A program made the translations under genes and the position numbers. From a virus (Duplodnaviria > Heunggongvirae > Uroviricota > Caudoviricetes), in IMG/VR virus record IMGVR_UViG_2579778753_000004: a stretch of 34,205 bases of DNA. The stretch is one strand, 5' to 3'. This document shows, one piece after another, positions 1-31,349 of the stretch (within the stretch, counting starts at the first letter, position 1; each line of letters starts with the position of its first letter). The notes under the pieces were generated by a model, which saw only the letters and a program-made list of their open reading frames with translations, was not told where the DNA came from and ran no database searches.

Positions 1-188
1 AATTTTGCGACCACGGTGCTTAACAAACTGGCGGAGAAGCTGGCCAAAGACCAGAACGGCGCAGATATTCCTGACCCGGCGCTCTTTGTCAAAAACCTTG
101 GTTTGGGAGATGCGAGCGGATACGTTGGTAGGCTGCTAAAAATACAGGTATTCACTGCCAGCGGGACAGTGACAAAAACGCCAGGCGC
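1..188. repeat. Left copy of inverted repeat (IR-L), coding, truncated by window edge
   Basis: Positions 1-188 are the exact reverse complement of 1681-1868 by hand alignment; identity stops at 189/1680. Both copies encode the same peptide NFATTVLNKLAEKLAKDQNGADIPDPALFVKNLGLGDASGYVGRLLKIQVFTASGTVTKTPGA. Confidence 0.9.
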
Positions 189-771
189 AAAAAAATGGCG
201 AATTAAATGTCTCGGTGGGGGGGGCGGCAGTTCAGCTGCACCGGCAACGGGTAGTAACGAGGTTTCCGTGAGTAACGGGGGCGGCGCAGGGGCATATGCT
301 GAGGGCATTTATGACGTATCGTCAATAACAACGGCGTCAGTCGTCATCGGTTCAGGCGGTGCAGGAGGAACGGCGGATTCAATATACGGCGCTGACGGCG
401 GAGCTAGCTCAGTTGGTTCGTTTATTTCATCGCCCGGCGGGAAAGTTGGATTACCCGCCGGCCCGGCAAACCCACCATTTCAGCCCGTGGCCAATACTAA
501 CAGCGATGGCCCGACTGGGTGGAATATTGTCGGCTCATCTGGAGCAGGGGCAGAACCAGCCGTAGCTGTTACATATAGCTATGCCGCTGGCTCGCGTGGT
601 TCAAATAGTATATTTGGGGTAGGCGGATCGATTCCTGCAATTAATGACCCGGCAAATCCCGGTGGGGGCTATGGTTCTGGAGCATCCGGCTGTTCGAATG
701 GCTCATCCCAACCAGCTAAATCAGGCGCAGCGGGACGCCCGGGAATCGTAATCATTGAGGAGCTGGCATAA
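1..771 (+). CDS. Alternative tail-fibre C-terminal module (silent orientation, 5'-partial, Gly-rich tip)
   Basis: Reading frame is open from position 1; the first 63 codons are the IR copy of the fibre constant region, then a unique Gly/Ser-rich C-terminus. No own start context; it would join the fibre N-terminus only after inversion. Confidence 0.6.
   Translation, partial: NFATTVLNKLAEKLAKDQNGADIPDPALFVKNLGLGDASGYVGRLLKIQVFTASGTVTKTPGAKKWRIKCLGGGGGSSAAPATGSNEVSVSNGGGAGAYAEGIYDVSSITTASVVIGSGGAGGTADSIYGADGGASSVGSFISSPGGKVGLPAGPANPPFQPVANTNSDGPTGWNIVGSSGAGAEPAVAVTYSYAAGSRGSNSIFGVGGSIPAINDPANPGGGYGSGASGCSNGSSQPAKSGAAGRPGIVIIEELA
85..110. other. Putative serine-invertase crossover site (hix/gix-like), left
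   Basis: TTTGTCAAAAACCTTGGTTTGGGAGA; its reverse complement shares the AAACCAAGGTTTTTGA core with hixL as I recall it (TTCTTGAAAACCAAGGTTTTTGATAA). Confidence 0.55.
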
Positions 772-953
772 TGAGTAATTATGCGCTAGTTAAAAATGGC
801 GTCGTTGAAAATGTTGTTGTATGGGATGGCACTGGAGACATTTTCGATGATTATATTACTGTGAATATTGACGACATATCGGCTGGTATCGACTGGACAT
901 ATGACGGAGAGGCATTTGCCCCTCCGCCAGAAATTACTCCGCAGGAGGCGTAG
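771..953 (+). CDS. Small protein coupled to the alternative fibre tip (putative cognate assembly chaperone)
   Basis: ATG overlaps the TAA of the upstream module (ATAATGA); 60 aa; converges on the 3' end of the minus-strand assembly gene. Confidence 0.4.
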   Translation: MSNYALVKNGVVENVVVWDGTGDIFDDYITVNIDDISAGIDWTYDGEAFAPPPEITPQEA

Positions 954-1365
954 GCCATTCAATATCTGGCGCACCGGAAGTATCGACCAGCTCCAGTGCG
1001 TCCAGATAATCCAGCCACAAATTATATTGCACCAGTTCCTCACCTTTCAGGCGACCAATCGCCGCTTTACCAGGCCATTGCTTACTGTTTATGTATTCGT
1101 TGACCTGATTAATCAATTGCTGCTTTTTCAGTTCGGCTGCGGCAATTTGTTCCTCATGAGTTGGCGGTGGAATATCAATCCATGCAGGCATTCCGTCGAT
1201 GACACCTCTGTATTTTCCTTCTGGTGCTTCCTTCATAAATTCGGCAGCAACAGTGTCGTCAATTTCGATTCCATCATCGGGCCATTCGCCGGATTCCTGA
1301 TAAGCGATTTTAAGCTCCACAGGGAAAAACGCATTTTTATCGGCACTGAAAATATATTTCTGCAT
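934..1365 (-). CDS. Tail fibre assembly protein (lambda Tfa / Mu U family)
   Basis: C-terminus ...LVDTSGAPDIEWPTPPAE resembles the conserved Tfa C-terminus; sits immediately downstream of the fibre gene. Confidence 0.75.
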   Translation of the reverse strand: MQKYIFSADKNAFFPVELKIAYQESGEWPDDGIEIDDTVAAEFMKEAPEGKYRGVIDGMPAWIDIPPPTHEEQIAAAELKKQQLINQVNEYINSKQWPGKAAIGRLKGEELVQYNLWLDYLDALELVDTSGAPDIEWPTPPAE

Positions 1366-1367
1366 TT

Positions 1368-2258
1368 CTACCGTCCTATCGAAATATAACTGAATCTGTA
1401 TTGCTGTGAGATATCACTGGTTGCCACACGCCACGCTGAATTACTGATATGTTCAAAATTTACAGACAAAACCTGCGGGGCAGGAATCGACGGGTCTGAC
1501 TGAACGGCATCAGACATAACACTGACTGAAACCATCGGCTGATTAGGGAATGGTATAGGGAAGTGTCCACTGATAAAGCGGGTCGTGTTTCCTGCAAAAG
1601 TGCCAAACTGAACAATATATCCACCTGGTAGCCTGAACCATCCCGAACCAGAAGCGAATGCTCCCATATCCGGTATCTGAGCGCCTGGCGTTTTTGTCAC
1701 TGTCCCGCTGGCAGTGAATACCTGTATTTTTAGCAGCCTACCAACGTATCCGCTCGCATCTCCCAAACCAAGGTTTTTGACAAAGAGCGCCGGGTCAGGA
1801 ATATCTGCGCCGTTCTGGTCTTTGGCCAGCTTCTCCGCCAGTTTGTTAAGCACCGTGGTCGCAAAATTCGGATCGTTACCGAGGGCATCCGCCAGCTCTT
1901 TAAGCGTATCCAGCGTCTCAGGGGCGCTGCCTGCAAGCGCTGCAAGTGCTTTGGCCACAAACTCAGTCGTCGCCAGCTTCTTGCTGTTATCGCTATTTGC
2001 AGGCGTGGGCGCTGTTGGCGTGCCGGTGAATGTCGGGCTGGCTTTCGGTGCGTACTGGGTATGCGGGTCTGCTGCCGCGATGTGTTTCGCAAGATCAGAA
2101 CCGCCTTTTTCAACCTGTTGCTTCAGGTACAGCGTGCGGCTGGCCAGTTGTTTACCCTGACGGTTAGAAATTCCGTCAGGCCCACCCAGAACGGGGTCAG
2201 AGACCTCAATCTGGTAGATGCCTTCTTCCCACTGCGGGGTTTCAGGTAGGTTTGCCAT
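1368..2258 (-). CDS. Tail fibre protein, currently expressed variant
   Basis: 296 aa; contains the TLDTLKELADALGNDPNFATT motif typical of fibre shafts; spans IR-R and a unique C-terminal tip. Confidence 0.8.
   Translation of the reverse strand: MANLPETPQWEEGIYQIEVSDPVLGGPDGISNRQGKQLASRTLYLKQQVEKGGSDLAKHIAAADPHTQYAPKASPTFTGTPTAPTPANSDNSKKLATTEFVAKALAALAGSAPETLDTLKELADALGNDPNFATTVLNKLAEKLAKDQNGADIPDPALFVKNLGLGDASGYVGRLLKIQVFTASGTVTKTPGAQIPDMGAFASGSGWFRLPGGYIVQFGTFAGNTTRFISGHFPIPFPNQPMVSVSVMSDAVQSDPSIPAPQVLSVNFEHISNSAWRVATSDISQQYRFSYISIGR
1681..1868. repeat. Right copy of inverted repeat (IR-R), inside the expressed tail-fibre gene
   Basis: Reverse complement of 1-188; may extend past 1868 because the partner is cut by the window start. 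Confidence 0.9.
1759..1784. other. Putative serine-invertase crossover site (hix/gix-like), right
   Basis: TCTCCCAAACCAAGGTTTTTGACAAA, the inverted partner of 85-110, lying inside IR-R. Confidence 0.55.
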
Positions 2259-2260
2259 AA

Positions 2261-2839
2261 TTAACTGCTCCCGTGGTTATAGCTACCGTCATAGTTGACG
2301 GTGTTGTTGTAGCGAATGGCGACAGACTGATACTCAAGGCTCGCCAGATGGCAGCGGGCCGGAGCAAAGGCAGCGAGCGTCTGGCGTAAAAGTGCTGCCT
2401 GATCGTTAGTAATGGGCTGCTGAAGGATGACGCGATAGACCGCCCAGGCTTCTGCATCGCCATGGACGAAAAGCCCGTTGTACGTGTGTTTGCCGTCGTA
2501 GCCAATCTGGCCAGTGCCTTCAATCAGATCCACTTCGCCGAAGCCGAAACGGCGGATAATTTCCCGGATTGACCACGGCGTCCCTTTATAGCGGTGCAGC
2601 TCGATAGCAGATTTGATAAGCATGCGGCGTACATCGTCCGATTCCGCCAGCTCCCAGCCATCGCCAAACAGCGAGAACTGCTCGCCCAGCCATGGCAGCG
2701 CGGAACTGTCGACGATATCGACGAGATAGACCATCAGTACGCTCAGGTCGATGTTATCCAGCCGCCCGGCCAGTTTTCCCAGCGTTCTGAGGCTGATATC
2801 ACCCTCAAGCGGCGGCGGGAGTTGTAGCGGCTCAGCCAT
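2261..2839 (-). CDS. Tail protein I-like (P2 gpI / Mu gp48 family)
   Basis: 192 aa between baseplate J-like and fibre genes, the conserved P2/Mu order. Confidence 0.65.
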   Translation of the reverse strand: MAEPLQLPPPLEGDISLRTLGKLAGRLDNIDLSVLMVYLVDIVDSSALPWLGEQFSLFGDGWELAESDDVRRMLIKSAIELHRYKGTPWSIREIIRRFGFGEVDLIEGTGQIGYDGKHTYNGLFVHGDAEAWAVYRVILQQPITNDQAALLRQTLAAFAPARCHLASLEYQSVAIRYNNTVNYDGSYNHGSS

Positions 2840-3935
2840 CGGACACCCCGGTCATGTTAAGAGTGATCGCCGTGCAGTTTGCCCATTCGTTTTCTGCCAC
2901 CACCTTCAGCACCGGTGTCACCAGTTCGACCTGGTAGACCCCGGCAACGGACAGCACGCTGATAATCTGGCTGGGGACAATATCGCGCCCCAGCGTGGCG
3001 GTACGGGACGCTACCCAGTTCTGTATGGCGCTGTTGGCGTTGTCCTTTATAGAGTTAGCATCCTGGTCACGATAGATAGTGATGTTGGCTTCAATGGCGT
3101 AATCCACCTGCACAGGTGTTTTAGCCCGCACGGTATCAGTGAGCGGCCTGACTTTTTCGTCCGAGCATAAACTCTCTACAAGCGTAAGGATGCTGTCGTC
3201 CGGCAAGCCGGTGCTGAGCAGCGGATACAGTTCTACAGTGCCGGGAACCGGGGAAAGCACGGCAACATCGACAATATTGGGATGGGCCTGCATGGCATGA
3301 AAGCGGTATGCCATACGGCTTCCGGCGTTGGTGAATGATTCCGGGGCCAGTTTGATACGCTCGCGGAGCCTGTCATTGTCTTCCTGCTCAGAACCGCCAG
3401 AACTGGCCGCCATATTGGTCACCTGCAGGTCGACGTTATCAATCTCATCGAGCAACTGACGGACCTGCGCAGGCTGCCAGCCGTTGCCTGCGGCTCCCGG
3501 CTCGGTACAGGTGGCCGTGGCATTGACAAGCAGCAATCCGGCTTTCAGCACTACGTCCGTATCGGTTGCAAAAATAATGCTGTCGGAAGCGCTGACGCGG
3601 GTACCTGCCGGAATCAGCACATCAATGGCCAGTTCCTCATCCACGGAGAACTGGAGCGTGGTGGTGGCAGGCTGCGCGGCCAGTCGGTATACACCAACCA
3701 GTTCACCGAGGTAATCAATCATCGGCTCACGGGCAAAGGCGACCAGATTCTGTTTGGCCGCTTCCTGCGCCGCCACCCTGACCAGCATTTCGCGGTATGC
3801 CCACAGGTCAATCAACAGGCGCTCAGCCTGAGCGGGGTATAGCGTCTTGCCAGTTGCGGCTTCGTACTGTGCAATCATTTCAGCCGTGATTTTGTCAGCA
3901 TCACGTTCAATAAAATCGGGTTCTGTCAGCGCCAT
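2832..3935 (-). CDS. Baseplate J-like protein (P2 gpJ / Mu gp47 family)
   Basis: 367 aa, position and size; overlaps neighbours by a few nt. Confidence 0.7.
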   Translation of the reverse strand: MALTEPDFIERDADKITAEMIAQYEAATGKTLYPAQAERLLIDLWAYREMLVRVAAQEAAKQNLVAFAREPMIDYLGELVGVYRLAAQPATTTLQFSVDEELAIDVLIPAGTRVSASDSIIFATDTDVVLKAGLLLVNATATCTEPGAAGNGWQPAQVRQLLDEIDNVDLQVTNMAASSGGSEQEDNDRLRERIKLAPESFTNAGSRMAYRFHAMQAHPNIVDVAVLSPVPGTVELYPLLSTGLPDDSILTLVESLCSDEKVRPLTDTVRAKTPVQVDYAIEANITIYRDQDANSIKDNANSAIQNWVASRTATLGRDIVPSQIISVLSVAGVYQVELVTPVLKVVAENEWANCTAITLNMTGVSDG

Positions 3936-4273
3936 AGCAACTCCTGAGTCCGGGGTTGTCCGTCAGAGCCTTTCCAGCTCACCCGGAGCGTAAGATGTTC
4001 GCCGTCGACGGCGGGTTTAACCGACATAAGCTGGCAGCGAGGCTCCCAGCGGCGAATGGCATCGACGGATTCGCGCACCACATGCGGAATAGCCCGGTCA
4101 ATAGGCCAGTCGATATAAAGGTGCAGATTGCTGCCGAACTCCGGGCGATGCGGGTCGCTGCCGCGAGGAGTACGCAGGATGATTTGAATGGCCTGCCAGA
4201 TATCATCCAGCCCCCGGACGATTTCGCCAGGGGCCTGCAGAGCCGGTTGCCAGAATACTGAGGTTGTTTTCAT
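3926..4273 (-). CDS. Baseplate wedge protein, GPW/gp25 family
   Basis: 115 aa, gp25-like size and synteny between V-like and J-like genes. Confidence 0.7.
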   Translation of the reverse strand: MKTTSVFWQPALQAPGEIVRGLDDIWQAIQIILRTPRGSDPHRPEFGSNLHLYIDWPIDRAIPHVVRESVDAIRRWEPRCQLMSVKPAVDGEHLTLRVSWKGSDGQPRTQELLWR

Positions 4274-21333: not shown

Positions 21334-21658
21334 GGTGACCTCCTGTATGACGATACTGCTGTACCACTTCCAGTTTGTTGTAGAGTGCGTCCAGCTTGGC
21401 CTCGATGACCGTCTGCCCACGGATGTAATCCTCGCGGCGGACGTAGTTCAGCGGTAAATCCGCCTTAAACCGCATAAATTCTTTTTCCAGCTCGCCCCAG
21501 TTGGAAGCGGACTGTTGCAGCGACTGCTCAAGAGAGGCGAACCGCGCCGCCTGGCGCTCCTCCGCTTTACTGAACAGCCACTTGGCCATACCGCCGACAA
21601 AGCTCATGAAGGTGATGAGAAAGCCCACCACCGTCCAGAATTCAACCTGCAACGTCAT
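21326..21658 (-). CDS. Membrane-anchored coiled-coil protein
   Basis: Start at ATG 21658 (MTLQVEFWTVVGFLITFMSFVGG...), one transmembrane segment then coiled coil; ATGA overlap with the spanin stop. Confidence 0.5.
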   Translation of the reverse strand: MTLQVEFWTVVGFLITFMSFVGGMAKWLFSKAEERQAARFASLEQSLQQSASNWGELEKEFMRFKADLPLNYVRREDYIRGQTVIEAKLDALYNKLEVVQQYRHTGGHHG

Positions 21659-22308
21659 TTCTGTAATCCTTCCCGTTCGTCCAGCAGCCCGTTTATCTGG
21701 CTGCGCCAGATGCGGCACTGCTTCGCGTTGTCGATGATGTTGGCGAGGACATCACGCTGGGAGACGCCTGAGTTGCGTAGCCAGGCGTCAGCGGCTTCAG
21801 GTTGCCCGGACGCTGCGCCAGTGCCGGTGCCAGCGGCGGCAGTTGCGTCTGAATGACCGGTGTCGACGGATGCGTTGTCATATCCGAGCGCGGCGTTGTA
21901 CTGGCGCACGAAACCGCGAGTAAACACGCACTCAATGGGATGGCTCTTACCTTTTTCATCAATCCAGCGCTGTGTGACATCGTTAATTTGCCCCTGTAGT
22001 TGTTTGTTCTGGCTCTCCAGTTGAGCAATCTGCTCAAGGTAACTGGCTTCAGCCTGCTGCCCGGCGGCTACCTGTTCCTGATACCGTTTCGCCCAAGCCC
22101 GCAACGCAGCGTTCTCAAGCGTTGCCTGCTCCGTTTTGTACGTGTCGAATGCTGACTGCAACTCACTGACCGCCTTATCGCCGTCGCGCGTGGCGTTTTC
22201 ATGCCCGCTTTTGTAGCCCAGGTAATAAAGCCCAATCAGAAAAGCATTTATGACCACCGCCAGCAGCAGACTGCGCCACGGCAGATTTTTTAGCAGGTTA
22301 GTCCACAC
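21655..22308 (-). CDS. Rz-like inner-membrane spanin
   Basis: GTG start with GGAGG RBS overlapping the endolysin stop; N-terminal transmembrane segment WRSLLLAVVINAFLIGLYYLGY, then coiled coil. Confidence 0.6.
   Translation of the reverse strand: MWTNLLKNLPWRSLLLAVVINAFLIGLYYLGYKSGHENATRDGDKAVSELQSAFDTYKTEQATLENAALRAWAKRYQEQVAAGQQAEASYLEQIAQLESQNKQLQGQINDVTQRWIDEKGKSHPIECVFTRGFVRQYNAALGYDNASVDTGHSDATAAAGTGTGAASGQPEAADAWLRNSGVSQRDVLANIIDNAKQCRIWRSQINGLLDEREGLQK
21693..21959 (-). CDS. Rz1-like outer-membrane lipoprotein spanin, embedded in the +1 frame of Rz
   Basis: MKKVRAIPLSACLLAVSC... signal and lipobox-like Cys, then a Pro-rich mature region; wholly inside the Rz-like gene. Confidence 0.55.
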   Translation of the reverse strand: MKKVRAIPLSACLLAVSCASTTPRSDMTTHPSTPVIQTQLPPLAPALAQRPGNLKPLTPGYATQASPSVMSSPTSSTTRSSAASGAAR

Positions 22309-23035
22309 AGCTGCCGCCTCCCCAGGTGAGATAACGCGGGGCCAGTTCGTGCAGGATGCGCTGCGGATAATGACGGTTCTCCCGCCAGTTGGCAGTGCTG
22401 CGTCCGGCATTCACCGTGGCGACATGACCAAACCAGCGGGTGCTGTCCAGCCCCTGCTGCGAGGCCAGCCGTTTGTCCCGCTGTACCCAGCCCAGACCAC
22501 CGTTATAGCCTGACAGCGTCATGGCCATACGCTCGCAGTCATTGACGGCGCTGACGCGTTGCCACAGCCAGCGGTCATAGCTGACCAGCGCCCGGATGGC
22601 CCAAGACGGATTAAACGGTTCACGGCTGTTAAGCCCCGGCATCAGCTGACTTATCCAGTCAGCGGTGGTGGGCATAAACTGCGCCAGTCCCTGAGCGCCA
22701 ACCGGCGAGACCGCATCAGGTCGCCAGCCGCTTTCCTGATGCAGCTGCGCGGCGAAGTCGGCCACCGGCGCAGACATTCCCCATTCAAGCCGGGCATTAC
22801 GGATCACATCGTCGCGATACTGCAGCGCGGTCTGCGGTGGCTGGGCAGCGCGGGCCTGACTGAAGAAGCCGCCACACCAGAGCAGCCAGGCTACCGTTAC
22901 TGAACCAAAGAGCTGCCACCAGAAACTGTGCTTACCCGTTCGGGCCTGCCCGTGGCGGGCCAGTTCGATGCCCAGCCCCAGCAGTACCAGCACGGCCCAG
23001 ACAACCTGAGGCCAGTACATATAGAGGGTCATCAT
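22298..23035 (-). CDS. Lytic transglycosylase endolysin (SLT domain) with hydrophobic N-terminus (possible SAR-type)
   Basis: SLT catalytic motif ...QESGWRPDAVSPVGAQGLAQFMP...; about 60 N-terminal residues with two hydrophobic stretches. Confidence 0.8.
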   Translation of the reverse strand: MMTLYMYWPQVVWAVLVLLGLGIELARHGQARTGKHSFWWQLFGSVTVAWLLWCGGFFSQARAAQPPQTALQYRDDVIRNARLEWGMSAPVADFAAQLHQESGWRPDAVSPVGAQGLAQFMPTTADWISQLMPGLNSREPFNPSWAIRALVSYDRWLWQRVSAVNDCERMAMTLSGYNGGLGWVQRDKRLASQQGLDSTRWFGHVATVNAGRSTANWRENRHYPQRILHELAPRYLTWGGGSCVD

Positions 23036-23385
23036 TAAAGCCCCATCGCTACGGCCAGACAGACTGCAGCAACAATCAGCGCACGGCGGATTAGCGCAGC
23101 AGAAAAGACCAGGTGAAGGCCAGTCTGGACAGGGAAGCGACCATCAGCCATCAGCCTGTCATCATGCTTCAGGTACTGACCGGGACGGGCTTTGGGGAAA
23201 AGCGAACGGTCAAGCCAGTAGCCCAATACTGCCGCCAGCGTGATGAGTGATAGCTTGTAGACAACCACCGGCAGCTGCTGGGGCGATACCAGACCGATGG
23301 TGCCGAGCAGCAGCACAGCGGTCAGCAGCCAGCCGCTGAGACGTGGCTTTTTAACAGGGGGAATGAATTTTTTCAGGTTTTTCAT
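23035..23385 (-). CDS. Putative holin (three predicted transmembrane segments)
   Basis: Start at ATG 23385 (MKNLKKF...) with RBS AAGGAGA; first gene of the late operon, just upstream of the endolysin. Confidence 0.5.
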   Translation of the reverse strand: MKNLKKFIPPVKKPRLSGWLLTAVLLLGTIGLVSPQQLPVVVYKLSLITLAAVLGYWLDRSLFPKARPGQYLKHDDRLMADGRFPVQTGLHLVFSAALIRRALIVAAVCLAVAMGL

Positions 23386-23497
23386 GAGCGTCTCCTTGTG
23401 TAGTGGAGACAGCATCACAAATGGTCGGGGAAAGGGATTTTAAACAGCGTTAATAGTGAGGATGCAGACGTGAACCGCATGATGGCTTTGAAAGAAC

Positions 23498-23529
23498 GAC
23501 CAGCCCGGTGCGGTAACACCAGGCTGGTC
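23498..23529. promoter_or_regulatory. 32-bp palindrome in the divergent late/dam control region
   Basis: GACCAGCCCGGTG-CGGTAA-CACCAGGCTGGTC, 13-bp arms with one mismatch; GACCAG recurs in direct orientation at 23558 and 23583. Confidence 0.4.
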
Positions 23530-23632
23530 ATCAACCCACAGGTATGCACTGTGAGCCGACCAGGGTTCAGTCAGTCTCGCGAGACCAGACTAGCCTGCCA
23601 TATTTTCATTGATTGCAAAAGGCTTACGGATA

Positions 23633-24403
23633 ATGAAAGAACAATCTTTACCCATCGTCCCATGGATTGGCGGTAAACGTCGTCTGGCGAAGCATATTTT
23701 ACCATTGTTTCCGGCCCATACCTGCTATGTGGAGCCGTTCTGCGGGGCAGCTGCGCTCTATTTCCTAAAGACTCCCAGCAAGACCGAAGTCATTAACGAT
23801 ATCAACGGGGAACTGGTGAACCTCTATCGGGTGGTCAAGCATCATCTGGAAGAATTTATTCGCCAGTTCAAATGGGCGCTGGTCAGCCGTCAGATTTACA
23901 AATGGTTGCAGGATACGCCGGAAGAAACGCTCACCGACATTCAGCGGGCGGCCCGGTTCTACTACCTGCAGAAACAGGCATTTGGCGGCAAGGTCGCCGA
24001 TCACACATTCGGTACCTCTACAACCAGTGCGCCGCGCTTCAATTTGCTGCGTATTGAGGAAGAACTGTCGATGGCACACCTGCGCCTGTCGAGAACGCTG
24101 ATAGAGCATCTGGACTGGCACCAGTGCATAGAGCGATATGATCGCCCGCATACGCTGTTCTACTGTGACCCACCGTACTGGGGAACGGAAGGCTATGGTG
24201 TGGAGTTCGGGCTGGAAAACTATGATCACATGGCAGATTTAGCGCGAAGGATCAAAGGGAAGATGATTATATCAGTGAACGATATCCCGGAAATGCGGCA
24301 GGTATTCAACGGTCTGAACATGCAGTCGGTTGATATCAGCTACAACCTTAAGGTAACAGGCAAACCCAGCCCGAAGAAAGAGCTGGTAATTTGTAATTTT
24401 TGA
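23633..24403 (+). CDS. DNA N6-adenine methyltransferase, Dam-like (orphan)
   Basis: N-terminal PWIGGKRRL and catalytic DPPY (YCDPPYWGTEGYG) motifs; start taken at ATG 23633 (the ORF track starts at a TTG at 23609). Confidence 0.8.
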   Translation: MKEQSLPIVPWIGGKRRLAKHILPLFPAHTCYVEPFCGAAALYFLKTPSKTEVINDINGELVNLYRVVKHHLEEFIRQFKWALVSRQIYKWLQDTPEETLTDIQRAARFYYLQKQAFGGKVADHTFGTSTTSAPRFNLLRIEEELSMAHLRLSRTLIEHLDWHQCIERYDRPHTLFYCDPPYWGTEGYGVEFGLENYDHMADLARRIKGKMIISVNDIPEMRQVFNGLNMQSVDISYNLKVTGKPSPKKELVICNF

Positions 24404-24420
24404 AAGAGGTAGTTAAAGGT

Positions 24421-24443
24421 GGTGGTGCATCTGCAGCACCACC
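24421..24443. terminator. Candidate terminator hairpin between convergent dam and lipoprotein genes
   Basis: GGTGGTGC-ATCTGCA-GCACCACC, 8-bp GC-rich stem; on the minus strand it is followed by UUUAACUACCUCUUU. Confidence 0.4.
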
Positions 24444-24450
24444 TAAACAT

Positions 24451-24984
24451 TTAATCCTGCCTTGGACAAGTCCAATAATCATTATCTGGCTCTGGTGAAT
24501 AAGCTTTCAAACAACCTGCTCGCGGGGTCTTACCATCATCTGTCATAGGAACTTTTTCCTTATCAAGTTTCACGGTCAGGTCTCCACCAGGAACATCCGT
24601 TTTATCGAAAAAAACAGCCTGACATGCTGATTTAGATATTTTCACTTCGTGGGCATTATTTGATATGAACAAATAACAATTATGACCAGAGGCTATGTAG
24701 TCACTTGGAATATTATTTTCGTCTTTAATATGAAACTGCACCGTTGTCACCGGGCGTTCGCTATCCTCGGATACTTCGACTTTTTCAAAACTGTCCGCGT
24801 ACTTATCCAGGCCGGGGAGTTGTTGGCGAATAAACGGTAATTCGCGATTTACAACCGGATTATCTGTTTCAACGCTAAAAACCGCGTGCTCCTTAGCTGT
24901 GGTGGACGTATCAGCAGGATCGGTATTATCTCCACACCCAGATAAAACAAATATCAACGGTAAAAATAATTTGCGCATAGTCAT
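24451..24984 (-). CDS. Secreted lipoprotein, low-GC accessory gene downstream of the repressor
   Basis: MTMRKLFLPLIFVLSGC lipobox LSGC; a hand count over 100 nt gave about 44% GC versus visibly GC-richer flanks; same strand as, and 36 bp downstream of, the repressor gene; RBS GAGGT. Confidence 0.7.
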   Translation of the reverse strand: MTMRKLFLPLIFVLSGCGDNTDPADTSTTAKEHAVFSVETDNPVVNRELPFIRQQLPGLDKYADSFEKVEVSEDSERPVTTVQFHIKDENNIPSDYIASGHNCYLFISNNAHEVKISKSACQAVFFDKTDVPGGDLTVKLDKEKVPMTDDGKTPRAGCLKAYSPEPDNDYWTCPRQD

Positions 24985-25019
24985 GTCCTTATACCTCTAA
25001 TGTTCTTAATAGGAACAGA

Positions 25020-25430
25020 TTAACCCGTATTTTTTAATCTTTCGAACGCTGCGGACAGCTCCTTAAGCTGTTTTTCCATATCAATCATTCGCTGTTTTTC
25101 CTCAGCGCCTCGCAGCAACTCTTTTCGCACCTCTGGCTCCAGTTGGTTGAGCAGCTCCAATAACTTCAGATCAGACTGGTTGAAATGCTGCTCCTGATTA
25201 GCTGGCTGTGCTTTCTCTACCCCAACAGCTTCCCCTTTACCAGTAAGTAGCCAATCTATTGATATGTTCAAATGGGTGCTTAGCGCAACAAGAGCCTCTG
25301 CATTAGGTTCTCTCTCTCCACGCAGATAGTTTTGAAGTGAGCGATATGGAATTTTTGACAAGTCTGACAATGCCTTAATTGTCAGACCCTTAGCATCCAT
25401 CGCTTCGCGCAATCTCTCTTTTATACTCAT
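25020..25430 (-). CDS. Prophage repressor (XRE/Cro-CI type HTH, C-terminal coiled coil)
   Basis: Start at ATG 25430 (MSIKERLREAMDAKGLTIKALSDLSKIPYRSLQNYLRGE...); divergent from the early operon. Confidence 0.75.
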   Translation of the reverse strand: MSIKERLREAMDAKGLTIKALSDLSKIPYRSLQNYLRGEREPNAEALVALSTHLNISIDWLLTGKGEAVGVEKAQPANQEQHFNQSDLKLLELLNQLEPEVRKELLRGAEEKQRMIDMEKQLKELSAAFERLKNTG

Positions 25431-25446
25431 TTGAACATATCTCAAT

Positions 25447-25474
25447 TTGACATACCCGTTTGGGTGCGTACAAT
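25447..25474 (+). promoter_or_regulatory. Early promoter (Pe-like) with overlapping operator repeats
   Basis: -35 TTGACA (25447-25452), 16-bp spacer, -10 TACAAT (25469-25474); inverted TTGGGT/ACCCAA pair brackets the -10 and a further ACCCAA lies downstream. Confidence 0.6.
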
Positions 25475-25518
25475 AGACCCAATAGAGTACATCATAACCC
25501 AACAGGAACACGGTGCAT

Positions 25519-25743
25519 ATGAACAAACAACAAGTTCGGGCACGGCTGGTTGAAAGAGGCAGTAGCTTGCGCCAGTTCGCGCTTAACGCGGGCTATGAGC
25601 CACGAACAGTCACCCAGGCTGTCAGCCGCTGGGCAGGCAAAAGCGAACTTCCACGCGGTCGTTTGACTTATCGGATTTTGCGAGACCTTTCGGTCGCAAT
25701 AGGCAAAGAAGTTACCCCCGGCATCCTCAAGGAGGCGTCATGA
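25519..25743 (+). CDS. ner: Ner-like DNA-binding protein
   Basis: 75 aa ...LRQFALNAGYEPRTVTQAVSRWAG...; first gene of the early operon, RBS AGGAA. Confidence 0.7.
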   Translation: MNKQQVRARLVERGSSLRQFALNAGYEPRTVTQAVSRWAGKSELPRGRLTYRILRDLSVAIGKEVTPGILKEAS

Positions 25744-26966: not shown

Positions 26967-28736
26967 ATGAGTGCCGCCCTGACTGAACGACTGGTTTATG
27001 TTGCCCGCGCGGCACGTGACGCGGGGCATGGTAAGCGTGGTGCGATATATGATGCCGCCTGCGCCGAACTGGGCATTTCCCGCGCCACCCTGCTGCGCAA
27101 GCTGAAGGAGGTATCAGTGACTGACAAACGTAAAAAACGCGCCGATGCCGGGCGCAGTGCCCTGAGCCGCGACGAAGCCGCGCTGATATCTGCCACGCTG
27201 CGCGAGGCCACCCGTAAGAACGGTAAGCGCCTGTATTCCATCGCGGATGCGGTGGAGACCCTGCGGTCAAACGGCTTTATCACTGCTGGCAGAACGGACG
27301 AGGCCACAGGCGAGTTTTTCCCGCTGTCCGAGGACACCATCAGCCGCGCCCTGCGGAACTATGGTCTGCACCCGGAACAGCTTGACGCACCGGCCCCGTC
27401 GTCCGAGATGGCCAGCCTGCATCCCAATCACGTCTGGGAGATTGATGCCTCACTTTGTACGCTTTACTACCTGAGCAACGGCCATAAAGGGTTGCAGGTG
27501 ATGGACAGCTCGAAGTTCTACAAGAACAAGCCTGCCAACATCGCCCGCATCGCCAGTGACCGCGTGTGGAGTTACGAGATTACCGACCATACCAGCGGCT
27601 GGATTTACGTTGAGTACGTGATGGGTGCGGAATCTGGTGAGAACCTCTGTTCTGTGCTTATCAACGCCATGCAGGAGCGCGGCGGCGCGGACGTGCTGCA
27701 CGGCGTGCCGAAAATACTCTACCTTGATCCCGGTTCGGCGAACACCGCTGGCATGACGAAAAACATGTGCCGCTCGCTGGGCATCAATCTGATAGCGCAC
27801 AAGCCGCATAACGCCCGCGCCACCGGGCAGGTGGAAAAGGCCCGTGACATTATCGAACGTAAACTGGAGCCGGGTCTCAAATTCCAGCCGGTTCATAGCC
27901 TGGACGAACTGAACGCGCTGGCGGTGAAATGGCGCAGCCACTTTAACGCCACGGCGGTCCACAGCCGCCACGGTAAAACCCGCACGGATATCTGGCTGAA
28001 GATTACTGCTGACCAGCTGAAAAAAGCGCCATCCGTTGAGGTTTGCCGCGAACTGGCGGTGGCCGCACCGGAACTCCGTAAGGTCACACCAAAACTGCGC
28101 GTCTCGTTCCGGGGCAATGAGTTTGACGTTTCGACGGTACCGGGCGTACTGGTCGGCGAAAAACTGATGATTACCCGTAACCCGTGGCGCAGCGATGTGG
28201 CGCAGGTGGTGCTGACCGGTGAGGACGGTCACGAGACGTTCTTCCTGGTCGAGGAGGTCAGAAAGAACGAGTTCGGCTTTGCCGAAAGCGCGGCGGTATT
28301 TGGCGAAAACTACAAAGCCCTGCCGGAGACCCCGGCGCAGACGGCGGCAAAAGAAATCGAAGAGCTGGTTACGGGCACCGATAACGCCACCGATGCAGCT
28401 GCTGCACGCAAGGCGAAGGCGCTGCCGTTCGGCGGGCGACTTGACCCGTACAAACATATCGACGACACCACGCTTCCTGCCTATATGCCGAAGCGCGGTC
28501 AGGCTTCAGACGTGCGCGGGCCGCGTATTGAGCAGCGTCCGCTGACCCATGTGGAGGCGGCGAAAGCCCTGCGCGAGAAGTTTGGCGCTAACGGCCATAT
28601 CTGGACGCCGGAACATTACCGCCAGTTAACGGCGCAGTACCCGGATGGCGTACCTGAAGCCGCGCTGGATGAGGTGATGGTTACCCTGACCACTCCGGCC
28701 CGCAACAGCGTTATCAGCATCGTTAACGGTAACTGA
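26967..28736 (+). CDS. DDE transposase (MuA-like)
   Basis: 589 aa; candidate catalytic Asp at ...VWEIDASL... and ...LYLDPGSANT...; followed by the ATPase gene; RBS AGGAGG. Confidence 0.85.
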   Translation: MSAALTERLVYVARAARDAGHGKRGAIYDAACAELGISRATLLRKLKEVSVTDKRKKRADAGRSALSRDEAALISATLREATRKNGKRLYSIADAVETLRSNGFITAGRTDEATGEFFPLSEDTISRALRNYGLHPEQLDAPAPSSEMASLHPNHVWEIDASLCTLYYLSNGHKGLQVMDSSKFYKNKPANIARIASDRVWSYEITDHTSGWIYVEYVMGAESGENLCSVLINAMQERGGADVLHGVPKILYLDPGSANTAGMTKNMCRSLGINLIAHKPHNARATGQVEKARDIIERKLEPGLKFQPVHSLDELNALAVKWRSHFNATAVHSRHGKTRTDIWLKITADQLKKAPSVEVCRELAVAAPELRKVTPKLRVSFRGNEFDVSTVPGVLVGEKLMITRNPWRSDVAQVVLTGEDGHETFFLVEEVRKNEFGFAESAAVFGENYKALPETPAQTAAKEIEELVTGTDNATDAAAARKAKALPFGGRLDPYKHIDDTTLPAYMPKRGQASDVRGPRIEQRPLTHVEAAKALREKFGANGHIWTPEHYRQLTAQYPDGVPEAALDEVMVTLTTPARNSVISIVNGN

Positions 28737-30202: not shown

Positions 30203-30814
30203 ATGAGCGAAGTAAATAAAGAAAACTACATGAAAGACCGCAAGGGGCGTCTGGTGCCGGTTGACCAGGTGTCTGACTATGACCTTGCGATGGACTCTTT
30301 CGTTAAAGAACAGGTTGTCGCCGCGAAGGTTAAACGCGATGAACTCAGTGACTTCAAGCGTCGTGCCTTTGACGAGTGCTATGCCTGGCTTGACCTTGTG
30401 GCCGAGAAGTACGGCAGAACGCGTGGCGGTGCCAAAGGCAACGTGACCTTCAGCAGCTTCGACGGTGCTCAGCAGATCACCATCCGCGTGCAGGAAACCC
30501 TGACCTTCGGGCCAGAGCTGCAGATTGCCAAAGACCTGATAGACGAGTGCGTCACCGAGTGGTCGGAAGGCGCGAACGCCAACCTGCGGGCCATCATCAG
30601 CGATGCTTTTCAGGTGGACAAAGAGGGCCAGCTTAATACCGGACGTATTCTTTCCCTGCGCCGCGTCAAGATTCAGGACGAGCGCTGGAACCGGGCAATG
30701 GAGGCCATATCGGAATCACTGCAGGTGGCAATGTCCAAAACCTATATTAATTTCCGGGAGAAAGATAAACACGGGAAGCTAATTAATATTCCGTTAGATA
30801 TCGCTGCCATTTAA
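30203..30814 (+). CDS. Conserved Mu-like early protein (DUF3164-like, from memory)
   Basis: 203 aa, RBS AGGTGA. Confidence 0.5.
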   Translation: MSEVNKENYMKDRKGRLVPVDQVSDYDLAMDSFVKEQVVAAKVKRDELSDFKRRAFDECYAWLDLVAEKYGRTRGGAKGNVTFSSFDGAQQITIRVQETLTFGPELQIAKDLIDECVTEWSEGANANLRAIISDAFQVDKEGQLNTGRILSLRRVKIQDERWNRAMEAISESLQVAMSKTYINFREKDKHGKLINIPLDIAAI

Positions 30815-30892
30815 TTTTAATTCAATTTCTTTTTATTTCGGCGTCAGTGCCGTGGGCTTCTGCACGCCGAAAACAGCATTAAGGAATAAATC

Positions 30893-31081
30893 ATGTCCAT
30901 CAAATGTATCAACTGCCAGAAAGGTATCACCACCCTGAAGTTCAGCGACGCCAGCGTCATTTCCTCCGGTAAGTACCGCGTACCAGCCGTCCTCATCACG
31001 CTGGTATGCCCACACTGTAGCCAGCATTACTACACCGAAGTCCCGGCCATGGAATTCATCCCTTGTGAGGCAAAGAAATGA
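30893..31081 (+). CDS. Small zinc-ribbon protein
   Basis: 62 aa with C-x2-C ... C-x2-C (CINCQ ... CPHCSQ); RBS AAGGAA. Confidence 0.5.
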   Translation: MSIKCINCQKGITTLKFSDASVISSGKYRVPAVLITLVCPHCSQHYYTEVPAMEFIPCEAKK

Positions 31082-31179
31082 TTACTGCAAAAGAAGCCGA
31101 AAAACGGACCCGTGAAATTGTCGCGGAATATATCAGTGAATGTGGTTGTGAAAATCCCAACCATATCGGCAGGTATTAA
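31078..31179 (+). CDS. Micro-ORF (33 aa), translationally coupled
   Basis: ATGA overlap with the upstream stop; MITAKEAEKRTREIVAEYISECGCENPNHIGRY. Confidence 0.3.
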   Translation: MITAKEAEKRTREIVAEYISECGCENPNHIGRY

Positions 31180-31193
31180 TCAAATTAATCAGC

Positions 31194-31349
31194 ATGGCTT
31201 CACACGCCATCGTAGCAACAAATGGCCTAGATCAGGCTATTTACGTTCTTCACGCCACCAGTGACCACCTGAGAAAAATGCCGCCGCTGTACGAGCTGGA
31301 AATTACTGAGGACGGCCACGTGAAAGTTATCGGCGTATCACGCCATTGA
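31194..31349 (+). CDS. Micro-ORF (51 aa)
   Basis: ATG-initiated frame in a gene-dense operon; weak RBS. Confidence 0.3.
   Translation: MASHAIVATNGLDQAIYVLHATSDHLRKMPPLYELEITEDGHVKVIGVSRH

What the first reader, a model, noticed from the sequence alone, without database searches (positions are those of the whole stretch)
24451..24984. Low-GC lipoprotein gene positioned for co-expression with the repressor
A lipoprotein gene lies 36 bp downstream of the repressor gene on the same strand, so it is probably expressed in the lysogen. It is visibly AT-richer than the prophage backbone (about 44% GC by hand count) and ends at a hairpin shared with dam. Position, expression state and envelope location fit a superinfection-exclusion or lysogenic-conversion factor.
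Basis: partly seen in the sequence, partly recalled or inferred. Interest (0 to 1): 0.6.

Follow-up and report, generated by a model that had tools for sequence, protein, structure and literature searches.

The report
Prophage lipoprotein gene behind the repressor
A Mu-like (Bcepmuvirus-type) prophage carries, right behind its repressor gene, a real AT-rich gene for a membrane-tethered periplasmic lipoprotein of an uncharacterised family, most likely made in the lysogen to keep other phages out, though this function is untested.

Summary
Window 24451-24984 (-) encodes a 177-aa protein with a lipobox (LSGC, Cys17). It starts 35 nt after the repressor stop codon, or 41 nt counting from the start codon NCBI's annotation uses. 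Its GC is 41.8% against 55.7% for the window. It ends at a 28-nt hairpin shared with the convergent dam gene.

The protein matches no Pfam, NCBIfam or PADLOC family, and a confident AlphaFold model has no structural relative. It belongs to a family of about 187 clusters at 50% identity. In nearly every locus examined, the family sits in the lysogeny module of Bcepmuvirus-like transposable prophages. There it lies on the repressor strand, directly behind the repressor or behind a tail-anchored partner protein that is fused to the domain in some homologues.

It is an accessory cassette: 30 of 64 related prophages carry it. It is exchanged independently of the repressor and is under purifying selection.

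Superinfection exclusion at the envelope is the best-supported function (about 0.4), but no test of it exists. Co-transcription with the repressor is inferred from gene layout, not shown. I rate it a new variant of a known kind, of moderate interest.

The parts
24451..24984 (-). Lipoprotein gene, 177 aa from the first ATG. NCBI's annotation (PGAP) uses the ATG at 24978, giving 175 aa (WP_001228474.1). Layout: signal peptide 1-16, lipidated Cys17, disordered acidic Asp/Thr/Ser-rich linker to about residue 35, alpha/beta core at about 36-146, C-terminal Cys-hairpin tail at 150-177.
24934..24984 (-). Signal peptide and lipobox LSGC. The Cys17 codon is at 24934-24936.
   Evidence: Read from the sequence. 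Cys17 is invariant in alignment A1. A lipobox was detected in nearly all full-length locus copies.
24985..25019 (-). 35-nt spacer between the repressor stop and the lipoprotein start. It carries GAGG and AAGGA ribosome-binding motifs, no promoter-like and no terminator-like site.
   Evidence: The spacer and signal-peptide DNA stay 85-96% identical to L003 and L004 while the mature part diverges.
25020..25430 (-). Repressor gene, 136 aa: an N-terminal HTH of the Cro/CI type followed by a C-terminal coiled-coil-like part. It is the presumed first gene of the two-gene lysogeny transcript.
24417..24444 (.). Imperfect palindrome in the convergent gap between dam and the lipoprotein gene. It is the likely two-way end of both transcripts.
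   Evidence: z -2.9 and -3.7. Not called by the terminator scan. Analogous hairpins of different sequence follow the gene in most enterobacterial relatives.
23609..24403 (+). Convergent Dam-family adenine methyltransferase gene. It separates the lipoprotein gene from the holin and lysis genes.
25447..25474 (+). Strong sigma-70-like site (TTGACA, 16 nt, TACAAT) facing the early genes (ner-like gene and transposase). It marks the divergent control region next to the repressor start. Context only.

Best explanation
The gene encodes a lipid-anchored periplasmic protein that belongs to the lysogeny module of a Bcepmuvirus-like transposable prophage. It is most likely transcribed together with the repressor as a two-gene unit that ends at the hairpin shared with dam, so it would be made continuously in the lysogen.

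The mature protein has an acidic flexible linker and a disulfide-stabilised alpha/beta domain, and it is tethered to a membrane facing the periplasm. It most likely acts as a superinfection-exclusion factor. It would bind an envelope component, or an ejected tail or tape-measure protein of an incoming phage, and so block genome entry. This resembles the way Ltp works in streptococcal prophages.

Shown here: the gene is real, the lipobox is present, the gene sits in the same slot in the relatives examined, it behaves as an optional and independently exchanged cassette, and it is under purifying selection. Inferred: co-transcription with the repressor, periplasmic location, and the exclusion function with its target.
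For: 1. Layout. The gap to the repressor is 35 nt, with no promoter-like or terminator-like site between the genes and a hairpin after the gene.

2. Conserved position. In nearly all of about 55 loci found through the protein itself, the homologue lies in a prophage with the same order: transposase, IclR-type HTH gene, repressor, lipoprotein, (dam), holin, SLT. It sits on the repressor strand, 8-41 nt behind the preceding gene in most loci.

3. Independent exchange. Against L003 and L004, the repressor, ner-like, dam and transposase proteins are 88-96% identical but the lipoprotein only 43-48%. DNA identity falls from 85-98% to 36-60% just after the signal peptide and recovers in dam. In L016 and L028 the repressor's DNA-binding half is swapped instead, and the lipoprotein is kept.

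4. Accessory status. 30 of 64 relatives found through the transposase carry it. In the five lipoprotein-lacking loci inspected the slot is empty or holds other cargo.

5. It is functional and evolves faster than its neighbours: dN/dS 0.06-0.18 against 0.02-0.08.

6. One homologue (P0048) fuses the domain to two Ltp repeats (PF07553, E 5.5e-28). [quoted passage not shown]

7. Other family members are anchored by an N-terminal transmembrane helix or have Asp at the +2 position. This points to action at the periplasmic face of the inner membrane, where DNA entry is blocked by known systems.

8. The mature protein is strongly acidic (pI 4.7, net charge -12). Negatively charged residues in Ltp's repeat domain are reported as important for binding the basic C-terminal end of the tape measure protein.
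Against: - A tblastn search of 50,697 phage records finds only two copies of this same prophage.
- No transcript or phenotype data exist, and no paper mentions the protein.
- The repressor promoter was not identified.
- The hairpin lacks a U-tract.
- AT-rich genes in enterobacteria are often silenced by H-NS (my own knowledge).
- The Ltp fusion is a single metagenomic protein on a 4.2-kb contig.
- Selection is mainly purifying rather than clearly diversifying.
- About half of the related prophages do without the gene.
Confidence: 0.4

Rival explanations
1. It is a lysogenic-conversion factor aimed at the host's environment rather than at phages. In this reading it is an envelope lipoprotein made in the lysogen that changes serum resistance, adhesion, envelope stress tolerance or permeability, as lambda Bor does.
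For: The positional and envelope evidence is the same as for exclusion. The gene is AT-rich and optional, like classic morons. Carriers include human, animal and food isolates.
Against: - The family tracks a phage lineage across hosts as different as Enterobacterales and Pseudomonas chlororaphis, not a niche.
- No Pfam family matches. From memory, Pfam includes Lambda_Bor.
- In about 21 loci the gene is paired with a phage-encoded membrane partner, and in some homologues it is fused to it. This fits a phage-directed device better than a host adhesin or serum factor.
Confidence: 0.2
2. It serves the phage's own life cycle. It could be the periplasmic module of a trans-envelope device that senses or modifies the envelope to control lysogeny, induction or lysis timing. 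Alternatively it could mask receptors so that progeny are not lost on cell debris, as T5 Llp does.
For: - In many relatives the domain lies next to a tail-anchored cytoplasmic protein, and in some it is fused to one. That protein carries a precomputed Pfam Flk_N hit; the homology between separate and fused forms is E 3e-24 and 2e-28.
- BcepMu itself has repressor gp17 followed by an overlapping membrane-protein gene, gp18.
- Some repressor C-termini carry the same FHGxVGQ motif as the partner's N-terminus.
- The gene lies between the immunity genes and the lysis genes.
Against: - The window has no partner gene, and its repressor lacks the motif.
- A hairpin and the convergent dam gene separate the lipoprotein gene from the holin and SLT cassette.
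- 34 of 64 related prophages lack the family altogether, so it cannot be essential for lysogeny or lysis.
- The local Pfam copy did not reproduce the Flk_N hit.
Confidence: 0.2
3. The gene is not co-expressed with the repressor. Either it is silent in the lysogen (for example through H-NS), or it is driven by its own promoter or by lytic-phase transcription, so the expression argument fails.
For: - No repressor promoter was identified.
- The gene is very AT-rich.
- In some relatives the gap to the preceding gene is 112-160 nt or more, which leaves room for a separate promoter.
Against: - Only 35 nt of spacer is present, and no sigma-70-like site lies in the repressor's 3' half or the spacer.
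- Tight spacing is conserved in most loci, including 8-nt gaps.
- Purifying selection shows that the protein is made under some condition.
Confidence: 0.15
4. It is an outer-membrane spanin (Rz1-type) or another lysis-cassette lipoprotein.
For: It is a lipoprotein encoded about 1 kb from the holin and SLT endolysin genes.
Against: - The mature protein is about 160 aa and globular, whereas Rz1-type spanins are short and proline-rich (my own knowledge).
- It lies outside the lysis cassette, behind a hairpin and a convergent gene.
- The lysis cassette has its own lipoprotein gene after SLT (window ORF 21655-22410).
Confidence: 0.03

Closest known systems
Ltp of Streptococcus thermophilus phage TP-J34 (Pfam PF07553, Lipoprotein_Ltp)
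   Same: Both are prophage lysogeny-module genes. Both encode a lipoprotein built as lipid anchor, flexible spacer and globular domain. [quoted passage not shown] One family member (P0048) carries two Ltp repeats after the domain. Both mature proteins are acidic.
   Different: The window protein has no Ltp repeat and a different predicted fold. It comes from a Gram-negative host with a periplasm. The exclusion activity is not demonstrated.
Lambda rexA-rexB, co-transcribed with the cI repressor (my own knowledge)
   Same: The gene logic is the same: accessory genes placed directly downstream of the repressor on the same strand are made whenever the prophage is repressed.
   Different: The Rex proteins are a cytoplasmic and inner-membrane abortive-infection pair, not a lipoprotein. 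No homology is detected. Co-transcription is not demonstrated here.
Cor (phi80, HK022, N15) and Llp (T5), lipoproteins that block the receptor FhuA (my own knowledge)
   Same: They are phage-encoded lipoproteins of Gram-negative hosts that stop infection at the envelope.
   Different: Those proteins are much smaller (about 60-80 aa), and no similarity is detected: the tblastn search of the phage collection hit only copies of this prophage. Family members anchored by a transmembrane helix or with Asp at +2 suggest action at the inner membrane rather than receptor masking at the outer membrane.
BcepMu gp17-gp18 (repressor followed by a membrane-protein gene)
   Same: The phage lineage is the same: the window transposase is 67.8% identical to BcepMu's. 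The slot is the same, with a membrane protein gene immediately after the repressor gene on the same strand.
   Different: gp18 lacks the lipoprotein family domain (no HMM hit). It resembles the tail-anchored partner only weakly (E 6e-4).
PHROG_10002 (function unknown)
   Same: Residues 27-134 match profile positions 215-321 of 328 at E 5e-14. This corresponds to the fused form: cytoplasmic domain, transmembrane helix, then this domain (P0087, P0115).
   Different: The window protein has only the C-terminal periplasmic part and is anchored by lipid instead of a helix.

Membership tests
Bacterial lipoprotein (substrate of Lgt and signal peptidase II) | A basic N-terminal stretch, a hydrophobic stretch, and a lipobox [LVI][ASTVI][GAS]C about 15-25 residues from the start. 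| tested here: met
   The sequence is MTMRK-LFLPLIFV-LSGC with Cys17. The Cys is invariant in alignment A1, and a lipobox was detected in nearly all full-length locus copies.
Bacterial lipoprotein (substrate of Lgt and signal peptidase II) | Actual lipid modification and membrane sorting. | not testable with these tools
   The +2 residue is Gly, so the classical rule predicts the outer membrane. Gly at +2 has also been reported to retain proteins in the inner membrane in some constructs (my own knowledge). Relatives have Asp at +2 or a transmembrane anchor.
Ltp-type superinfection-exclusion lipoproteins (PF07553) | Presence of the Ltp repeat domain. | tested here: not met
   The window protein has no Pfam hit at E <= 0.01. 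The model is in the library, because it hits P0048 at E 5.5e-28.
Ltp-type superinfection-exclusion lipoproteins (PF07553) | Lysogeny-module location and expression in the prophage state. | tested here: inconclusive
   The location criterion is met. Expression is inferred only.
Cor, Llp and Bor phage lipoproteins | Sequence similarity to the proteins of phi80, HK022, N15, T5 or lambda. | tested here: not met
   The tblastn search of 50,697 phage records at E <= 1e-3 hit only KP12 and Phi06_2974 B, both copies of this prophage. No Pfam hit.
Moron (independently acquired prophage accessory gene) | Base composition different from the phage backbone. | tested here: met
   41.8% GC against 55.7%. 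The gene is below its prophage in 21 of 21 loci.
Moron (independently acquired prophage accessory gene) | Presence or absence varies among otherwise related phages. | tested here: met
   30 of 64 loci found through the transposase carry it. PhiKM lacks it.
Moron (independently acquired prophage accessory gene) | Its own promoter and terminator. | tested here: inconclusive
   No promoter-like site of its own. A hairpin follows the gene but lacks a U-tract. The gene appears to rely on the repressor's transcript.
Rz1-type outer-membrane spanin | A short proline-rich lipoprotein encoded within or next to the inner-membrane spanin gene in the lysis cassette. | tested here: not met
   The mature protein is about 160 aa and globular. 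It lies outside the cassette, beyond dam and a hairpin.
Known anti-phage defence systems (PADLOC-DB 2.0) | A match to any model in the database. | tested here: not met
   No family at E <= 0.1.
Bcepmuvirus-like transposable prophage (context) | A transposase of the BcepMu type, and divergent early genes and repressor flanked by the lysis and structural genes. | tested here: met
   The transposase is 67.8% identical to BcepMu's, 69% to phiE255's and 93% to that of PhiKM, which NCBI places in Bcepmuvirus. The gene order matches BcepMu.

The most novel reading that the evidence does not exclude
The lipoprotein's core domain defines an undescribed extracytoplasmic module of transposable-phage lysogeny operons, with no relative by sequence or predicted fold. 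In many phages the module is coupled across the inner membrane to a Flk-N-like tail-anchored cytoplasmic protein, either as the neighbouring gene or as a fusion. That protein's N-terminal motif also occurs at the C-terminus of some repressors. Together they could form a new trans-envelope device: either a new exclusion mechanism, or a sensor that links events in the periplasm to the repressor and so to the decision between lysogeny and induction. The window would carry the lipid-anchored, partner-less version.
Probability: 0.15. Interest if true: 0.7.

Novelty: new variant of a known kind. Interest (0 to 1): 0.45.

Why it matters
Genes that prophages express alongside their repressor are a rich source of phage-resistance and host-modifying functions. 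This family has about 187 clusters at 50% identity. It has no Pfam entry, no solved or predicted structural relative, and almost no representation among sequenced phage isolates. If it excludes phages, it would be a new envelope-level exclusion protein for Enterobacterales and pseudomonads. It would also matter for phage therapy, because it is present in 20 of 5,426 complete E. coli genomes and in Klebsiella, Salmonella, Citrobacter, Serratia, Yersinia and Morganella. Its pairing or fusion with a tail-anchored partner offers a tractable route to a possible trans-envelope mechanism.

Tried and rejected
- **Family libraries.** Pfam, NCBIfam and PADLOC gave nothing for the protein. PHROGs gave only an unnamed family.
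- **PDB sequence searches.** The single protein and the family profile both found nothing meaningful.
- **Locus search with the broad alignment.** It failed because no stretch was conserved enough, so I used the closer alignment A1 instead.
- **Flk_N hit.** The precomputed Flk_N label on the partner protein was not reproduced with the local Pfam copy, so I treat it as a lead only.
- **Literature.** Searches for the protein accession, for BcepMu with lipoprotein and repressor, and for Mu-like prophage exclusion lipoproteins found nothing relevant.
- **Alternative cargo.** Genes that occupy the same slot in other prophages matched no known defence system, apart from a weak KwaA-like hit at E 8e-4.
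- **Positive selection.** In near-identical alleles dN/dS is 0.4-0.8, but this rests on only 5-6 non-synonymous and 2-4 synonymous changes, too few to claim anything.
- **Spanin and core-gene readings.** I rejected the spanin reading on size and position, and the essential-core-gene reading on the 30 of 64 occupancy.

Full report
**1. What is in the sequence**

The window is a transposable prophage of the BcepMu type. The transposase gene (26967-28736, +) encodes a protein 67.8% identical to BcepMu's, 69% to phiE255's and 93% to that of Escherichia phage PhiKM, which NCBI places in the genus Bcepmuvirus.

Around the finding, the gene order from higher to lower coordinates is as follows:
- The early operon runs rightwards: a ner-like gene (25513-25743), an IclR-type HTH gene, a DUF3102 gene and the transposase.
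- The repressor (25020-25430, -) diverges from the early operon.
- The lipoprotein ORF (24451-24984, -) follows the repressor.
- A Dam methylase gene (23609-24403, +) converges on the lipoprotein gene.
- The holin (23035-23418, -) and an SLT-domain endolysin (22298-23035, -) come next, followed by the structural genes.

BcepMu has the same order.

**2. Check of the observation**

The ORF encodes 177 aa beginning MTMRKLFLPLIFVLSGC. This is a textbook lipoprotein signal: a basic stretch, a hydrophobic stretch and the lipobox LSGC with Cys17.

PGAP starts the gene at Met3 (175 aa, WP_001228474.1, "hypothetical protein"). That gives 41 nt and places AAGGA 7 nt before the ATG. Many homologues begin at that Met.

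GC is 41.8%, third-position GC 35%. The window is 55.7% and the transposase has 71% third-position GC. The gene falls in the lowest 0.6% of 534-nt windows. The repressor gene is also AT-rich (44.8%), so the island spans about 24100-25600.

The 47-nt convergent gap to dam holds an imperfect palindrome at 24417-24444. It folds better than shuffled sequence on both strands (z -2.9 and -3.7). It lacks a U-run, and the terminator scan did not call it.

**3. Is it a real gene?**

Yes. It is conserved from 100% down to about 35% identity. dN/dS against diverged alleles is 0.06-0.18. An AlphaFold2 model built on 22 homologues has mean pLDDT 82, with values above 90 over most of residues 40-150. Only the signal peptide and linker (1-32) are disordered.

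The fold is two helices packed on a beta-sheet, followed by a C-terminal beta-hairpin. Cys103 and Cys121 are invariant across the broad family. Cys157 and Cys173 are conserved in the long forms. This fits a disulfide-bonded periplasmic protein, which is an inference. The mature protein is very acidic (pI 4.7, net charge -12).

**4. Family**

Nothing matches in Pfam, NCBIfam or PADLOC. PHROG_10002, of unknown function, matches residues 27-134 at its C-terminal third.

The word-indexed search found 37 clusters, all from Enterobacterales. The exhaustive profile search found 187 representatives at 50% identity with E <= 1e-3. They share the motifs PGLDKY, IPxxYxAxGHxC and KxxCxSxCLD. Gly58, Cys103 and Cys121 are invariant in the 42-sequence alignment A2 of the broad family.

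Four architectures occur:
- (A) Lipoproteins of 130-190 aa, as in the window.
- (B) Lipoproteins of about 311-318 aa with an inserted middle domain and the same C-terminal tail.
- (C) A cytoplasmic domain, a transmembrane helix, then this domain. This is the PHROG_10002 layout.
- (D) A transmembrane helix, this domain, then two Ltp repeats (P0048, PF07553, E 5.5e-28).

**5. Context elsewhere**

*Found through the protein.* About 55 loci were collected from genomes, IMG/VR and metagenomes. Nearly all that are long enough show the same prophage layout, with the homologue on the repressor strand between the repressor and the holin. The one clear exception is L010, a 4.2-kb metagenome contig. The pattern holds in Yersinia and Morganella (43-48% identity), Xenorhabdus (41%) and Pseudomonas chlororaphis (35%).

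The gene directly upstream falls into two classes:
- An HTH repressor, with gaps mostly of 22-41 nt. All alleles at least 65% identical to the window's fall here, apart from the Serratia sp. Ag1 loci (L015, L032, L033; 74% identical), where the fused partner gene is upstream.
- In about 21 loci, a protein of 176-196 aa with one or two C-terminal transmembrane segments. This protein itself follows the repressor and is homologous to the cytoplasmic part of architecture C (E 3e-24 and 2e-28).

The window has no such partner.

*Found without bias, through the transposase.* Of 64 IMG/VR relatives (70-100% transposase identity) with enough upstream DNA, 30 carry a family member in the slot. In the five lipoprotein-lacking loci inspected the slot is empty (also in PhiKM) or holds other cargo: an NA37-like protein plus a 408-aa membrane protein, or a 307-aa plus a 153-aa membrane protein. 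None of this cargo is a recognised defence system. The gene is therefore an accessory cassette of this phage lineage, not a core gene.

**6. Mosaicism and selection**

Against L003 and L004, the neighbouring proteins are 88-96% identical but the lipoprotein only 43-48%. At the DNA level, identity stays at 85-98% through the repressor, the spacer and the signal peptide. It falls to 36-60% in the mature part and returns to 83-90% in dam.

In L016 and L028 the reverse happens. The repressor's DNA-binding half is replaced, while the lipoprotein is 70-86% identical at the protein level. Repressor specificity and lipoprotein type are therefore exchanged independently.

In close relatives (L013, L014, L026), synonymous divergence is 0.02-0.04 in the lipoprotein gene and 0.08-0.11 in the repressor gene, against 0.19-0.32 in dam, the IclR-type gene and the transposase gene. 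This suggests recent spread of the two-gene module among diverged prophages.

Low GC is a family trait: 21 of 21 loci lie below their prophage, by 2-16 points. Most enterobacterial copies are followed at once by a GC-rich hairpin of unrelated sequence. This supports the view that the transcript ends there.

**7. Mechanism**

*Shown.* The product has a lipoprotein signal peptide. The gene occupies the same position behind the repressor in the relatives examined. The cassette is optional, recombines independently of its neighbours and is under purifying selection.

*Inferred.*
- Co-transcription with the repressor. This rests on the short spacer, on the absence of any promoter-like or terminator-like site between the genes, and on the conserved spacing.
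- A periplasmic, membrane-tethered location.
- A probable site of action at the periplasmic face of the inner membrane. Relatives use transmembrane anchors or Asp at +2. Gly at +2 in the window protein leaves the sorting open (my own knowledge).

*Most likely function.* Superinfection exclusion by blocking genome entry, at about 0.4. The supporting points:
- The single fusion to Ltp repeats.
- Cassette-like exchange that is independent of immunity type.
- The use of the same slot by other cargo.

*Rivals.*
- A host-directed conversion factor (0.2).
- A role in the phage's own cycle, including a trans-envelope sensor together with the Flk-N-like partner (0.2).
- Failure of the expression premise (0.15). 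This overlaps with the others, so the figures do not sum to 1.
- A spanin role is rejected.

**8. Comparison with known systems and verdict**

The gene logic resembles lambda cI-rexAB, and the protein plan resembles Ltp. The protein is not a member of the Ltp, Cor, Llp or Bor families, nor of any PADLOC family.

I rate it a new variant of a known kind: prophage envelope proteins expressed with the repressor. It belongs to an uncharacterised family with no detectable structural relative. Interest is moderate at 0.45. The category is familiar, but three features would be worth an experiment: the lineage-wide conservation of the slot, the apparently new fold, and the coupling to a tail-anchored partner.

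Noticed in passing
window 1-188 and 1681-1868; ORFs 16-771 (+), 934-1365 (-), 1368-2258 (-): A perfect 188-nt inverted repeat lies inside two oppositely oriented tail-fibre ORFs that share an identical N-terminal stretch. A tail-fibre-assembly-like ORF and an AT-rich stretch lie between the arms. This looks like a Mu G-segment-type invertible host-range switch. The left arm touches the window edge, so it may be longer.
   Followed up: partly
L007 5396-5986; L042 5411-5995; L018 5426-5965; L015 4870-5844: In about 21 related prophages a protein of 176-196 aa with one or two C-terminal transmembrane segments sits between the repressor and the lipoprotein. It has a precomputed Pfam Flk_N label that the local Pfam copy did not reproduce. 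In P0055, P0087, P0115 and L015 the same protein is fused through a transmembrane helix to a copy of the lipoprotein's domain. L015 therefore carries two copies of the domain in tandem.
   Followed up: partly
L141 (BcepMu) 2826-3242 gp17; upstream ORFs L056 5386-5823 and L043 5216-5596: Some repressors end with a motif (for example QVFHGSVGQAVKVEGN) that resembles the N-terminus of the tail-anchored partner (QDFHGEVGQAAGGDINN). This hints at an interaction between the repressor and the membrane protein. The window's repressor lacks the motif.
   Followed up: no
L003 6732-8947; L065 2771-4986: A pair of genes, an NA37-family nucleoid-associated-like protein (E 7e-81) and a 401-408-aa membrane protein with a weak KwaA-like match (E 8e-4), occupies the same post-repressor slot. 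In L003 it is present in addition to the lipoprotein, in L065 instead of it. It may be an undescribed defence pair.
   Followed up: partly
window 23419-23608, compared with L001 4420-4986: E. coli CFSAN051542 and the KP12 record carry a DUF2441 gene between dam and the holin that is absent from the window. This is a second variable cargo site next to the lysogeny module.
   Followed up: no
L013, L014, L026 compared with window 24451-25430: The repressor and lipoprotein genes have much lower synonymous divergence (0.02-0.11) than dam, the IclR-type gene and the transposase gene (0.19-0.32) in the same prophage pairs. This suggests recent horizontal spread of the two-gene module.
   Followed up: partly
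L140 (Escherichia phage PhiKM, PQ738613.1) 3738-4094 (-): A 118-aa HTH repressor ORF lies in the expected position but is not annotated in the GenBank record. PhiKM has no lipoprotein gene in the slot.
   Followed up: partly
L002 (OM835952.1, Klebsiella phage KP12 clone KP12_2): This record is filed under Vequintavirinae, but it is a near-identical copy of this Bcepmuvirus-like prophage. It is probably a host prophage sequenced together with the lytic phage.
   Followed up: no
L010 2585-3532 (P0048): A metagenomic protein combines an N-terminal transmembrane helix, the lipoprotein family domain and two Ltp repeats. It is the only direct link from this family to a characterised exclusion domain.
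   Followed up: partly
window 30661-31313: A second AT-rich stretch (about 46% GC) lies in the early region, with only short ORFs.
   Followed up: no
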